This document shows, in pieces, positions 159-776 of a stretch of 776 nucleotides of DNA; positions within the stretch are counted from its first letter, which is position 1; every line of letters begins with the position of its first letter. The notes beneath the pieces are model-generated. The model saw only the letters and a list, made by a program, of their open reading frames with translations. It was not told the origin of the DNA and did not search any database. Position numbers and translations under genes: made by a program. Origin of the DNA: Escherichia coli (GTDB lineage: Bacteria > Pseudomonadota > Gammaproteobacteria > Enterobacterales > Enterobacteriaceae); assembly GCF_003334255.1 (NCBI RefSeq), contig NZ_QOWU01000189.1; one strand, 5' to 3'.

Positions 159-419
159 TTACTCGCAGGAATTTTGTGAAGGCTTTTGAGGAGAGTAAAT
201 CTCTTCAGTAAGCTTAATGGCGGACGCTGCAATTAATTCAGGAAGGTCCGCAAGGTCATCTGTCAGTGGGAATGATGAAAAATCGGCGGCAGTTCTGTTA
301 AGAATTGCTTTAACTAATTCCTTTTCCTCATCCGGCAACACGTTGATTAGAGCTACGACTGCTTGCCTGAGTGCGATTAAATCAGCAAAAGTTTGTTTTG
401 GTAGATTTGGATAATCCAT
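159..419 (-). CDS. Small acidic hypothetical protein, 86 aa, predicted all-helical, no signal peptide or transmembrane segment; function unknown
   Basis: This is the internal ATG (419..417) of the 159..644 minus-strand ORF, chosen because it has a Shine-Dalgarno-like AGAGGTG (429..423) with the GAGG core about 5 nt upstream. Translation: MDYPNLPKQTFADLIALRQAVVALINVLPDEEKELVKAILNRTAADFSSFPLTDDLADLPELIAASAIKLTEEIYSPQKPSQNSCE, with 14 Asp/Glu against 7 Lys/Arg. First codon positions are purine-rich (~34% G by hand count), which is coding-like. TAA stop at 161..159 is followed 18 nt later by a strong intrinsic terminator. The longer 161-aa version would overlap the lysozyme start antisense and is judged an artefact. 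Confidence 0.5.
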   Translation of the reverse strand: MDYPNLPKQTFADLIALRQAVVALINVLPDEEKELVKAILNRTAADFSSFPLTDDLADLPELIAASAIKLTEEIYSPQKPSQNSCE

Positions 420-422
420 AGT

Positions 423-429
423 CACCTCT
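423..429 (-). promoter_or_regulatory. Ribosome-binding site (Shine-Dalgarno) for the minus-strand small acidic protein gene
   Basis: The minus strand reads 5'-ACAGAGGTGACT-ATG. AGAGGTGA matches the SD consensus GGAGGTGA at 7 of 8 positions, with appropriate spacing to the ATG at 419..417. Confidence 0.5.
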
Positions 430-509
430 GTGTTTATCAGATTGACATACCCTGGCCAGTGCCCACCACTGGCGGGGTGAAGGCTTAACATATCCAGGGA
501 TTCGGAACC

Positions 510-526
510 GATAAATCCTGATAAAT
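510..526 (+). repeat. Tandem direct repeat GATAAAT-N3-GATAAAT immediately upstream of the lysozyme start codon
   Basis: GATAAAT occurs at 510-516 and again at 520-526, a 10-bp (one helical turn) periodicity, ending 4 nt before the ATG at 531. There is no GGAGG-like SD in this interval. Confidence 0.4.
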
Positions 527-530
527 ATCC

Positions 531-776
531 ATGAACGCAAAAATCAAATACGGCCTGTCGGCTGCCGTTCTGGCGCTGATTGCCGCAGGGGCTTCTGCGC
601 CTGAAATTCTCGACCAGTTTCTGGATGAAAAGGAAGGTAACCACACCACGGCATACCGTGATGGTGCAGGTATCTGGACCATCTGCCGTGGTGCCATCAT
701 GGTGGATGGCAAACCTGTCGTTCCGGGCATGAAGTTGTCGAAGGAAAAATGCGACCAGGTTAACGCCATTGAGCGT
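531..776 (+). CDS. Phage-type lysozyme (T4-lysozyme-like, GH24 family endolysin), N-terminal 82 aa; 3' end runs off the window. Likely SAR-type or secreted.
   Basis: ATG at 531 is the first start after an in-frame TAA at 522-524, and the frame is open to the window end. Translation: MNAKIKYGLSAAVLALIAAGASAPEILDQFLDEKEGNHTTAYRDGAGIWTICRGAIMVDGKPVVPGMKLSKEKCDQVNAIER. Glu35 (633-635), Asp44 (660-662) and Thr50 (678-680) reproduce the E-x8-D-x5-T spacing of the T4 lysozyme triad (E11/D20/T26), and the G-x-W-T-I/V-C-x-G motif is typical of lambdoid SAR endolysins. Codon usage is enterobacterial-like (CTG, GGC, CGT, GCC). Not in the ORF track only because there is no stop in the window. Confidence 0.88.
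   Translation, partial: MNAKIKYGLSAAVLALIAAGASAPEILDQFLDEKEGNHTTAYRDGAGIWTICRGAIMVDGKPVVPGMKLSKEKCDQVNAIER
552..599 (+). other. N-terminal hydrophobic export segment of the lysozyme (residues 8-23), candidate SAR domain or signal-peptide h-region
   Basis: Residues 1-7 (MNAKIKY) form a positively charged n-region, followed by ~16 weakly hydrophobic Ala/Gly/Ser-rich residues (GLSAAVLALIAAGASA). The A-S-A motif is followed directly by Pro24, and Pro at +1 is known to block signal peptidase I cleavage, which favours an uncleaved signal-anchor. An alternative A-G-A/S cleavage site cannot be excluded. The catalytic Glu35 follows almost immediately. Confidence 0.6.

What the first reader, a model, noticed from the sequence alone, without database searches (positions are those of the whole stretch)
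159..776. Compositional and codon-usage discontinuity across the intergenic region
By hand count the minus-strand gene region (about 180-420) is roughly 40-45% GC with AT-rich and rare codons, while the lysozyme gene (531-776) is roughly 50-60% GC with high-expression enterobacterial-type codons. This mosaic junction fits modular phage evolution or a moron insertion next to the lysis gene.
Basis: seen in the sequence. Interest (0 to 1): 0.3.

Follow-up and report, generated by a model that had tools for sequence, protein, structure and literature searches.

The report
AT-rich antisense moron beside phage lysozyme
The GC drop is real and marks a small, backwards-facing accessory gene with an apparent promoter and terminator of its own, dropped into a swap-prone slot between the lysis genes of an E. 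coli lambda-like prophage; this is an ordinary kind of phage mosaicism, and the gene's function is unknown.

Summary
The minus-strand 86-codon gene (window 159-419) has 41.8% GC and 34.5% GC3. Both are the lowest of 32 genes in the surrounding 24.8 kb prophage. The lysozyme gene (531 onward) has 54% GC, which is ordinary for the prophage. The codon adaptation index differs inside the window (0.31 vs 0.59). Classical rare codons do not differ.

The window lies in the late/lysis operon of an E. coli lambdoid prophage: holin, YdfR-like ORF, [small antisense gene], SAR lysozyme R.

- **Variable presence:** the small gene is in 315 of 5,426 complete E. coli genomes, while this window, mostly its lysozyme part, matches at 10,709 places in 4,277 genomes.
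- **A swap-prone slot:** among 75 viral loci with at least 95% identical R, the holin-R interval takes at least 16 forms. Eight carry minus-strand, AT-rich cargo ORFs from six sequence families with no detected similarity to one another.
- **Shared expression signals:** all cargo loci keep a promoter-like block (TTTATC-N17-TATGTT). Four cargo types also share a leader palindrome next to R.
- **Terminator:** the 86-codon gene ends in a strong hairpin followed by a T-run.

The product is an acidic, three-helix protein with no informative homologue. The moron reading is supported. Function is unknown and novelty is modest.

The parts
1..211 (+). 3' part of a YdfR/DUF1327-family ORF (full ORF L001 11576-12211, 211 aa). 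It is part of the late operon. Its last 53 nt overlap the 3' end of the small gene convergently.
   Evidence: ORF list. PHROG hits phrog_2091 and phrog_406. RefSeq marks it a truncated YdfR pseudogene, and the PhiR5_1 authors annotate it as a DUF1327 protein. The ORF is intact, with the same C-terminal tail KRRDEQFAAFYDYCIEVTRRNF..SLQ, in CFT073 and phage 2H10. The tail is homologous to the C-terminus of the convergent partner gene in distant relatives L008 and L009.
104..140 (-). Intrinsic-terminator-like hairpin of the small gene. The 12-bp stem pairs 129-140 with 109-120 (AAAACGCCGCGA / TCGCGGCGTTTT) around an 8-nt loop, followed by TCTTC on the minus strand. It starts 18 nt after the stop codon and lies inside the codons KRRDEQFAAFY of the + ORF. 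It is also the left homology breakpoint (103-110).
   Evidence: Fold of window 80-165 minus strand: -31.7 kcal/mol, z=-4.5. The local hairpin is -18 to -20 kcal/mol. It is conserved in distant homologue loci, with a compensatory pair change in L008 (GCCGC/GCGGC to GCCAC/GTGGC). It is degraded (-7.6 and -8.4 kcal/mol) in slot types that lack the small gene. Breakpoints. The consensus terminator scan missed it and flagged the adjacent hairpin at 91-108 instead.
159..419 (-). 86-aa cargo gene, family phrog_2572. The product is acidic (pI 4.3, net charge -7.5), has no hydrophobic segment long enough for a membrane span (read from the sequence) and is predicted as three helices. GC 41.8%, GC3 34.5%.
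   Evidence: ORF and translation. Full-length hit to phrog_2572, E=3.6e-50. RefSeq CDS WP_001625288.1. Homologues at 40-47% identity in the multiple alignment (P0019, P0020) keep length, frame and hydrophobic pattern, and indels are whole codons. AlphaFold2 model: helices 8-26, 30-48 and 56-74, mean pLDDT 70. Charge and pI.
423..428 (-). Shine-Dalgarno-like GAGGTG, 3 nt upstream of the ATG of the small gene.
   Evidence: Read directly from the sequence; the same sequence is present in phage 2H10.
455..473 (.). Perfect palindrome GCCAGTG-N5-CACTGGC in the predicted 5' leader of the small gene. It is the right-hand homology breakpoint, shared by four cargo types with no detected similarity to one another.
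   Evidence: Megablast and blastn breakpoints at 455-463. The alignment of slot types loses homology immediately after it. It occurs once per locus, only upstream of R. The leader fold is -25.5 kcal/mol, z=-2.9. It is not this prophage's own repressor operator.
487..515 (-). Candidate sigma-70 promoter for the cargo: -35 TTTATC (515-510), 17-nt spacer, -10 TATGTT (492-487). It sits in the R-proximal conserved block and reads away from R.
   Evidence: The hexamers are invariant while the spacer varies across loci, including L009, which has no lysozyme gene nearby. Present in 19 of 19 cargo-bearing loci (8 of 8 types) against 26 of 56 cargo-less loci (1 of 7 types), Fisher p=1.6e-5 by loci. It is a weak consensus match (3/6 and 4/6) and the promoter scan did not call it. 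No transcript data are available.
531..776 (+). First 82 codons of the SAR-type (R21-like) lysozyme R (full gene L001 12531-13064, 177 aa). It has an N-terminal Gly/Ala-rich hydrophobic segment and the motif E35-X8-D44-X5-T50.
   Evidence: phrog_7 endolysin, E=2.4e-62. Annotated as lysozyme or rrrQ. The motif is read from the translation. The SAR and catalytic-triad assignment rests on my knowledge of phage 21 R and was not tested here.

Best explanation
Window 104 to about 473, together with the promoter-like block at 487-515, is a 'moron': an AT-rich, apparently self-contained transcription unit inserted backwards into the late (lysis) operon of an E. coli lambdoid prophage. It sits in a recombination-prone slot between a ydfR-like gene and the SAR lysozyme gene R.

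Shown:
- The composition break is real.
- The gene is present in only a few per cent of otherwise near-identical lysis cassettes.
- In relatives the same slot is empty, or holds one of at least five other minus-strand, AT-rich ORF families with no detected similarity to this one.
- Homology breaks at the terminator hairpin on the left and at a palindrome on the right.
- The ORF is conserved as a protein in relatives that align at 40-47% identity.

Inferred:
- Transcription starts at the conserved TTTATC-N17-TATGTT block next to R. It runs through a hairpin-containing leader and the 86-codon ORF, and stops at the hairpin plus T-run embedded in the convergent ydfR-like ORF.
- Because the unit is antisense to the Q-dependent late operon, it would be expressed mainly from the repressed prophage. 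Late transcription after induction would override it.

Function: the product is a small, acidic, cytoplasmic three-helix protein. It would act by binding another macromolecule. My best guess is a role in lysogen fitness or phage-phage conflict rather than in lysis itself. The biochemical function is not established.
For: - **Composition:**
- **Context:** 100% match in a prophage at the yecE site with the order Q, nanS-p, holin, ydfR-like, small gene, R, Rz, terminase.
- **Variable presence:** 315 of 5,426 genomes carry the gene, against window matches (mostly R) in 4,277 genomes.
- **Linkage:** the gene is almost always next to R when present. 293 records cover at least 80% of the whole window, and 294 cover at least 80% of the gene.
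- **Slot diversity:** at least 16 interval types, from 7 to 1,448 nt. Eight types carry cargo, all on the minus strand, from six families: phrog_2572, 2411, 18136, 1853, 10490 and one 210-aa ORF with no PHROG hit. All have 38-45% GC against 54-55% for R.
- **Promoter block:** it tracks cargo presence, and it travels with the gene in L009, where no lysozyme gene adjoins the cassette.
- **Terminator:**. Three other cargo types (90, 91 and 210 aa) also end in hairpin plus T-run.
- **Real protein-coding gene:**
Against: - No transcript or start-site data were available. The promoter hexamers are weak (3/6 and 4/6) and were not called by the consensus scan.
- The same block is also present in the commonest cargo-less type (26 loci). 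It overlaps the translation-initiation region of R, so part of its conservation may serve R.
- The terminator hairpin lies in conserved codons (KRRDEQFAAF) of the plus-strand ORF, so protein constraint contributes to its conservation.
- The small gene's CAI is not significantly different from the rest of the prophage.
- The slot survey rests on 75 loci that are not phylogenetically independent.
- Nothing bears on function. There are no significant hits in Pfam, NCBIfam, PADLOC, PDB sequences or structure libraries.
Confidence: 0.75

Rival explanations
1. The small gene is an accessory part of the lysis machinery, such as a regulator of holin, SAR-endolysin or the ydfR-like protein. On this view it co-evolves with the cassette and is not a free-standing moron.
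For: - When present, it is essentially always beside R (293 and 294 records).
- The more distant homologue P0019 also sits in the lysis region, between an Rz-like DUF2514 gene and a DUF1441-family gene that precedes a further, cut-off ORF.
- It is always paired convergently, with a 53-59 nt 3' overlap, with a gene ending in a homologous KRRDE...RNF...Q tail.
- Its predicted promoter region abuts the R start codon.
Against: - It accompanies only about 3% of the places that match the window and 2 of 75 near-identical R loci.
- Families with no detected similarity replace it in the same place.
- It is antisense to the late transcript that expresses the lysis genes.
- I see no hydrophobic stretch long enough for a signal peptide or membrane span in the sequence (GRAVY -0.06), although holin and SAR endolysin act in the membrane and periplasm.
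Confidence: 0.1
2. The functional product is the antisense RNA, not the protein. Minus-strand transcription across 104-480 would regulate the late mRNA, or the 3' end of ydfR-like, by pairing or by transcriptional interference. The ORF would be incidental.
For: - The unit is fully antisense to the late operon, and its 3' end overlaps the ydfR-like coding sequence by about 110 nt up to the terminator.
- The promoter block and leader hairpin are more conserved than any cargo.
- The commonest cargo-less type keeps the promoter block, which would then read antisense into ydfR.
Against: - The ORF keeps its start, frame, length and hydrophobic periodicity at 40-47% amino-acid identity in the multiple alignment, with whole-codon indels.
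- It has a good Shine-Dalgarno sequence.
- The antisense (+) ORF varies in length and start position.
- There is no Rfam match.
Confidence: 0.08
3. The composition difference has no special meaning. It is ordinary gene-to-gene scatter, and the small ORF is a mis-called reading frame in a spacer.
For: - Within the 776 nt alone the change point is only borderline significant (p about 0.05).
- CAI of the small ORF is not an outlier.
- The close-relative comparison shows 13 nucleotide changes giving 8 amino-acid changes, which is weak evidence for purifying selection.
- The plus-strand frame is also open.
Against: - It has the lowest GC and GC3 of 32 CDSs and sits at the 0.65th percentile of windows.
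- The same AT-richness recurs in all eight cargo types.
- It is a full-length member of a PHROG family, and distant homologues preserve the frame.
- A Shine-Dalgarno sequence and a terminator are placed appropriately for the minus strand.
Confidence: 0.04

Closest known systems
Morons of lambdoid phages, as defined for HK97/HK022 (Juhala et al. 2000; Hendrix et al. 2000; from my knowledge, and cited as Juhala et al. 2000 in PMC4104026)
   Same: An extra gene sits between two genes that are adjacent, or closer together, in relatives. Its base composition differs from its neighbours. It is flanked by a promoter-like element and a hairpin plus T-run terminator. It could be expressed independently of the surrounding late operon.
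   Different: The promoter is not private to this cargo. It lies in a conserved block next to R that is shared by several cargo families with no detected similarity to one another. The left junction and the terminator lie inside the coding sequence of a convergent gene, not in an intergenic gap. Expression from the prophage has not been tested.
Lambda bor, a lysogenic-conversion gene transcribed antisense to the late operon just downstream of the lysis genes (from my knowledge)
   Same: A small gene (86 aa here, about 97 aa for Bor) next to the lysis cassette, oriented against late transcription. The P0019 homologue lies after the Rz-like gene and before the next phage genes, which is the bor position.
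   Different: There is no sequence similarity. I see no signal peptide or lipobox in the sequence. The product is an acidic, soluble helical protein, whereas Bor is an outer-membrane lipoprotein.
phrog_2572 (PHROGs v4, unknown function)
   Same: Full-length match, E=3.6e-50. The distant homologues P0019 and P0020 match the same family.
   Different: None; this is its family. The family carries no functional annotation.
Prophage sRNA and moron sites downstream of pR' in EHEC prophages: AsxR/AgvB (PMC4104026) and Pas sRNAs (bioRxiv 10.64898/2026.05.13.724894)
   Same: Accessory, often convergent or antisense, transcription units at conserved positions in the late region of the same kind of prophage, near the esterase-holin-lysozyme block.
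   Different: Those elements lie between the moron CDS or the sialate esterase gene and the holin, not between holin and lysozyme. They are non-coding. There is no Rfam match in the window.

Membership tests
Moron (autonomous accessory transcription unit in a phage genome) | Present between two genes that are adjacent, or differently separated, in close relatives | tested here: met
   The holin-R interval is 7 to 1,448 nt in loci with at least 95% identical R. The 86-aa gene is in 2 of 75 loci and in 315 of 5,426 genomes.
Moron (autonomous accessory transcription unit in a phage genome) | Base composition distinct from flanking phage genes | tested here: met
   GC 41.8% and GC3 34.5% are the lowest of 32 CDSs. 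R has 54.5% and 60.1%.
Moron (autonomous accessory transcription unit in a phage genome) | Own factor-independent terminator | tested here: met
   A 12-bp GC-rich stem plus T-run starts 18 nt after the stop codon. Folding z=-4.5. It is conserved with a compensatory change in distant loci. This is sequence evidence only.
Moron (autonomous accessory transcription unit in a phage genome) | Own promoter | tested here: inconclusive
   TTTATC-N17-TATGTT is conserved and correlates with cargo presence. It is a weak consensus match, was not called by the scan, and there are no transcript data.
Moron (autonomous accessory transcription unit in a phage genome) | Expressed from the repressed prophage | not testable with these tools
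   Needs RNA-seq, 5'-RACE or a reporter assay in a lysogen.
DUF1823 (Pfam PF08853), as annotated for this gene in phage PhiR5_1 | Significant match to the Pfam model | tested here: not met
   The best Pfam hit is DUF1823 with i-Evalue 0.042, covering 30 of 113 model positions. The annotation in PV340545.1 is not supported.
Known anti-phage defence system components (PADLOC-DB v2) | Match to any PADLOC model | tested here: not met
   No family at E<=1 for the 86-aa protein, nor for two other cargo proteins from the slot.
Lambda Bor-type lipoprotein | Signal peptide with lipobox; sequence similarity to Bor | tested here: not met
   The N-terminus is MDYPNLPKQTFADL, which has no hydrophobic leader or lipobox cysteine. 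There are no NCBIfam or Pfam hits.
TPR-like repeat proteins | Significant similarity to TPR repeats, or a TPR-like fold | tested here: inconclusive
   phmmer hits to repeats in two 975- and 1,305-aa proteins (E=2e-8 and 5e-5, summed over 5-6 repeats). I read those two as TPR plus CHAT proteins from their sequences alone, without a domain search. There is no Pfam TPR hit. The three-helix model has no significant structural neighbour.

The most novel reading that the evidence does not exclude
The lysozyme-proximal block (promoter-like TTTATC-N17-TATGTT plus the leader palindrome GCCAGTG-N5-CACTGGC) may be a conserved, outward-facing expression platform. It would define a cargo-exchange slot inside the lysis cassette of E. 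coli lambdoid phages. Small AT-rich genes from families with no detected similarity to one another (at least six families of 86-210 aa, all of unknown function) would be swapped in behind the same promoter and leader by recombination at the hairpin and palindrome boundaries, and expressed from the lysogen. On this reading they are an uncharacterised pool of prophage-encoded host-modulating, phage-exclusion or counter-defence factors.
Probability: 0.3. Interest if true: 0.55.

Novelty: new member of a known kind. Interest (0 to 1): 0.3.

Why it matters
On its own this is a textbook-style moron junction and changes little. Three things go beyond that.

1. It marks a well-defined hypervariable slot between ydfR and R in a very common E. 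coli prophage lysis cassette. The window, mostly its lysozyme part, matches in 4,277 of 5,426 complete genomes.
2. The slot offers a set of small genes of unknown function (phrog_2572, 2411, 18136, 1853, 10490) that share orientation, AT-richness and apparently a promoter and leader. That makes them convenient to test together for lysogen phenotypes such as superinfection exclusion.
3. It corrects two annotations. The DUF1823 label for the small gene is unsupported. The ydfR-like 'pseudogene' call hides an intact, conserved, longer ORF.

Tried and rejected
- **Function by homology.** Pfam, NCBIfam, PADLOC, a PDB sequence profile, and Foldseek against PDB and BFVD with a model of pLDDT 70 gave nothing significant.
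- **Wider homologue search.** The 5.8-billion-protein word search found only E. coli near-identical copies. The exhaustive HMMER search added two real distant homologues plus hits to repeat proteins that I regard as compositional or helical-repeat similarity.
- **Are the cargo families of the slot diverged alleles of one gene?** Rejected. BLASTP found no alignment between the 86-aa and 104-aa proteins, and the cargo proteins fall into five separate PHROGs plus one ORF with none.
- **Is the palindrome a repressor operator?** It contains an 11-mer that I recalled as matching lambda OL1. Rejected for this prophage: its cI/cro intergenic region has different inverted repeats (TTGCGTGA...TCACGCAA), and the palindrome occurs only upstream of R.
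- **Known sRNAs.** There is no Rfam hit. AsxR/AgvB and the Pas sRNAs lie elsewhere in the late region.
- **15-codon minus-strand uORF (532 to 485) overlapping the R start.** The variation is not preferentially synonymous. The pattern of conserved hexamers with a variable spacer fits a promoter better.
- **dN/dS on the close pair, window vs phage 2H10.** Only 13 differences, so it is uninformative.
- **Literature searches.** I found no description of this slot or gene.
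Full report
**1. What the window is**

The 776 bases match 100% to the chromosome of E. coli STEC2018-607, and at 98-99% to other E. coli chromosomes and to induced phages such as PhiR5_1. The 24.8 kb around it (L001), plus the next 15 kb, show a lambdoid prophage integrated next to yecE/yecN. The gene order is: XRE-type repressor and cro-like gene, replication and nin-like genes, Q antiterminator, nanS-p-type esterase, DUF1378, DUF826, class II holin, a YdfR/DUF1327-family ORF, a small minus-strand gene, lysozyme, two small ORFs, Rz, terminase and head and tail genes.

The window covers three things:
- the last third of the ydfR-like ORF (1-211, + strand);
- the small gene (159-419, - strand);
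- the first 82 codons of the lysozyme (531-776, + strand).

The lysozyme has a Gly/Ala-rich hydrophobic N-terminus and an E35-X8-D44-X5-T50 motif. From my knowledge of phage 21 R, this is the signature of a SAR endolysin. It hits phrog_7 'endolysin'.

**2. Checking the observation**

The stretch 180-420 is 41.9% GC and 531-776 is 53.7%. For the exact CDS, GC is 41.8% and GC3 is 34.5%, against 53.7% and 58.5% for the in-window lysozyme codons (Fisher p=0.008 and 0.002).

Among the 32 CDSs of L001, the small gene has the lowest GC and the lowest GC3 (z=-2.8 and -3.3). Only 0.65% of all 261-nt windows in the locus are as AT-rich, and no non-overlapping window is. The lysozyme (54.5% GC, 60.1% GC3) is close to the prophage mean (52% and 54%). 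So the anomaly is the small gene, and more broadly the whole holin-R interval, which runs at about 45% GC. Using the window alone, the best change point (after base 550) is only borderline significant (p about 0.05).

For codon adaptation I built a CAI reference from 31 highly expressed K-12 genes: 28 ribosomal-protein genes plus rpoA, tufA and fusA.
- The small gene scores 0.31.
- The in-window lysozyme codons score 0.59 (permutation p=5e-5).
- The full lysozyme scores 0.46 (p=0.02).
- The pooled prophage scores 0.38.
- The reference genes average 0.68.

The small gene is not significantly worse than the prophage average (p=0.078). The lysozyme 5' end is unusually well adapted (p=0.00015). 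Classical rare codons do not differ: 4 of 86 against 10 of 177. The discontinuity is therefore confirmed, but the rare-codon detail is not.

**3. Is the small ORF a gene?**

Several lines say yes:
- It has a GAGGTG Shine-Dalgarno sequence 3 nt upstream of the ATG.
- RefSeq annotates it as a CDS.
- It matches phrog_2572 end to end (E=3.6e-50).
- The word-indexed search found only E. coli copies at 81% identity or more. The exhaustive HMMER search added two genuine distant homologues. P0019 (93 aa) and P0020 (89 aa) align at 47% and 40% identity to the window protein in the multiple alignment; phmmer gives 58% and 42% over the matched stretches.
- These homologues keep start, length, whole-codon indels and the hydrophobic pattern.

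The plus-strand ORF on the other strand (217-414) shares third-codon positions with it. That ORF varies in length and start in the relatives, so I do not regard it as a gene.

The close pair, window against phage 2H10, has only 13 nucleotide differences. That is too few for a selection test.

**4. Variable presence and the slot**

The small-gene segment (141-440) occurs in 315 of 5,426 complete E. coli genomes, at 353 places, all chromosomal. The whole window, mostly its lysozyme part, matches at 10,709 places in 4,277 genomes. Records covering at least 80% of the whole window (293) almost equal records covering at least 80% of the gene (294). So when the gene is present, it sits next to this lysozyme.

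The gene occurs in more than one prophage backbone. One is Stx-phage-like, with nanS-p. Another is Qin-like, with csp genes, in CFT073 and phage 2H10.

I fetched 80 viral loci whose lysozyme is at least 95% identical and typed the holin-R interval in the 75 where a holin was found. There are at least 16 types, from 7 nt (holin directly followed by R) to 1,448 nt.

Eight types (19 loci) carry a minus-strand ORF that diverges from R, with its start 95-131 nt from the R start codon:

| Cargo ORF | Family |
|---|---|
| 86 aa | phrog_2572 |
| 90 aa | phrog_2411 |
| 91 aa | phrog_18136 |
| 104-106 aa (three subtypes) | phrog_1853 |
| 105 aa | phrog_10490 |
| 210 aa | no PHROG hit |

BLASTP found no alignment between the 86-aa and 104-aa proteins. 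The cargo proteins fall into separate PHROG families. All cargo genes are AT-rich (38-45% GC) next to an R gene of 54-55%.

**5. Anatomy of the cassette**

*Right side.* Aligning the 150 nt upstream of R across slot types shows a block on the minus strand, ATGGATATTTATCAGGATTTATC-N17-TGGATATGTTAA. The hexamers TTTATC (window 515-510) and TATGTT (492-487) are invariant, and the 17-nt spacer varies. That is the pattern expected of a sigma-70 promoter reading away from R.

The block is in 19 of 19 cargo loci (8 of 8 types) and in 26 of 56 cargo-less loci (1 of 7 types). Fisher p=1.6e-5 by loci, with the caveat that the loci are related. It is also retained upstream of the P0019 homologue in L009, where no lysozyme gene adjoins the cassette. 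That argues it serves the small gene and not only R translation.

Downstream of the -10 element, four cargo types (86, 91, 104 and 105 aa) share about 30 further nucleotides. These end in the perfect palindrome GCCAGTG-N5-CACTGGC (window 455-473). The 210-aa type has a one-base variant of it. Homology stops immediately after the palindrome, matching the megablast breakpoints at 455-463. The predicted leader folds at -25.5 kcal/mol (z=-2.9).

*Left side.* Eighteen nucleotides after the stop codon lies a 12-bp stem (AAAACGCCGCGA / TCGCGGCGTTTT) followed by TCTTC. The consensus scan missed it because the A/T pairs extend the stem. It called the neighbouring hairpin at 91-108 instead.

This hairpin sits inside the codons KRRDEQFAAFY of the plus-strand ydfR-like ORF. 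Its behaviour across loci is informative:
- It is strongest (-14.6 to -20.8 kcal/mol) where the 86-aa gene or its homologues abut it.
- It is degraded (-7.6 and -8.4) in two slot types that keep the peptide motif but lack the gene.
- In L008 it keeps pairing through a double change (CGC to CAC together with GCG to GTG), although both changes alter the encoded protein.

Terminator-like hairpins also follow the 90-, 91- and 210-aa cargo genes. The left homology breakpoint (103-110) is at the base of the hairpin.

**6. The convergent partner**

RefSeq calls the ydfR-like gene a truncated pseudogene. However, the ORF is intact at 211 aa here, 169 aa in L026, and 183 aa (counted from MTQDY; 190 aa from the TTG start listed) in CFT073 and phage 2H10. 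It always ends in ...KRRDEQFAAFYDYCIEVTRRNF..SLQ and overlaps the small gene by 53 nt.

In the distant relatives the small gene is again convergent with a partner gene, and overlaps it by 59 nt. The partner is 73 aa in L009 and 116 aa in L008, and its C-terminus is homologous to that tail. So the conserved unit is the small gene plus the tail of a convergent late gene. I could not determine whether this reflects a functional pairing or only the position of the terminator.

**7. The protein**

It has 86 aa, pI 4.3 and net charge -7.5, with no hydrophobic segment long enough for a membrane span. AlphaFold2 with a shallow alignment predicts three helices (8-26, 30-48, 56-74), with mean pLDDT 70.

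There is no significant hit in Pfam (DUF1823 at E=0.042 only), NCBIfam, PADLOC, PDB sequences, or Foldseek against PDB and BFVD. Hits to the repeats of two large proteins suggest a helical-repeat-like sequence pattern and nothing more. I read those two proteins as TPR plus CHAT from their sequences.

**8. Mechanism**

*Supported by evidence here.* This is an AT-rich accessory gene placed backwards in the late operon. It sits at a site where cargo is exchanged by recombination. Its boundaries are a terminator hairpin on the left and a leader palindrome on the right.

*Inferred.*
- The gene is transcribed from the conserved block next to R and stops at the hairpin.
- It is active mainly in the lysogen, when the Q-dependent late operon is silent.
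- Antiterminated late transcription after induction would override it.
- The protein acts by binding a partner. A lysogen-fitness or phage-conflict role is more likely than a lysis role, because most identical lysis cassettes work without it.

*Rivals.* The alternatives are a lysis accessory protein, an antisense-RNA regulator, and chance with a spurious ORF. They are weighed in the Rival explanations section.

**9. Comparison with known systems, and novelty**

The element meets the composition, variable-presence and terminator criteria of a moron as defined for HK97 and HK022. The promoter criterion is inconclusive, and expression could not be tested. In position and orientation it resembles lambda bor, but it is not a Bor homologue and not a lipoprotein. 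It belongs to phrog_2572, which has no known function. The DUF1823 label in the PhiR5_1 record is not supported.

Literature searches found no description of this slot. The prophage sRNAs described near the holin-lysozyme block lie upstream of the holin.

I rate this a new member of a known kind. Interest is modest. The shared promoter and leader in front of interchangeable cargo is the one feature worth following up.

Noticed in passing
window 485-532, minus strand: A 15-codon minus-strand ORF (MDIYQDLSVPNPWIC) starts at a CATG that also provides the lysozyme ATG on the other strand. It stops at the same position in all relatives, including L009 (MYIYQALSALKLWLL). It overlaps the proposed -35 and -10 elements. 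The variation is not preferentially synonymous, so I read the block as a promoter, but a leader peptide is not excluded.
   Followed up: partly
window 455-478: The palindrome region contains CCGCCAGTGGT on the minus strand. From memory, this matches 11 consecutive bases of lambda operator OL1 (TATCACCGCCAGTGGTA). This prophage's own cI/cro intergenic region has different inverted repeats. So this is probably chance or a relic, and no binding protein is known.
   Followed up: partly
L001 11576-12211 (window 1-211); L092 2020-2571: RefSeq marks the YdfR-family gene as a truncated pseudogene. However, an intact 169-211 aa ORF with a conserved coiled-coil and KRRDEQFAAFYDYC tail is present in several backbones. 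These proteins are themselves mosaic: a DUF1327 N-terminus, a variable middle and a variable tail. Qin YdfR was recently reported to bind the RNase E catalytic domain and RNA (PMC13232886).
   Followed up: partly
window 159-419 vs L006 2557-2817: Of the 13 nucleotide differences between the small gene here and in phage 2H10, 10 occur as five adjacent double substitutions. Four of these span the third position of one codon and the first of the next; the fifth lies within one codon (TTC to TAT). They give 8 amino-acid changes. This is an odd pattern for 5% divergence, and I have no explanation.
   Followed up: no
window 91-108, minus strand: A second hairpin, TCTTCAGGCCGCTGAAGA, follows directly after the main terminator. 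It is the only site the consensus terminator scan reported. The two stems are tandem on the minus strand.
   Followed up: no
L001 13065-13554; L002 7065-8477; L003 3937-4929: The interval between R and Rz is also variable among relatives. It holds two small ORFs here, a 231-aa ORF plus small ORFs in PhiR5_1, and an antirepressor gene in Stx1_14040. So the lysis cassette has at least two cargo slots.
   Followed up: no
L003 2640-3341 (minus strand); L082: A 210-233 aa minus-strand ORF occupies the same slot in phage Stx1_14040. It overlaps the 3' end of the annotated 263-aa plus-strand ORF and is not annotated in that record. It has no PHROG, NCBIfam or PADLOC hit.
   Followed up: partly
L014 and L052 types, about 55-65 nt upstream of R on the minus strand: The 104-106 aa cargo subtypes in L014 and L052 carry a perfect TATAAT a few bases downstream of the shared TATGTC/TATGTT element. 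They may therefore use a different or additional -10 element.
   Followed up: no
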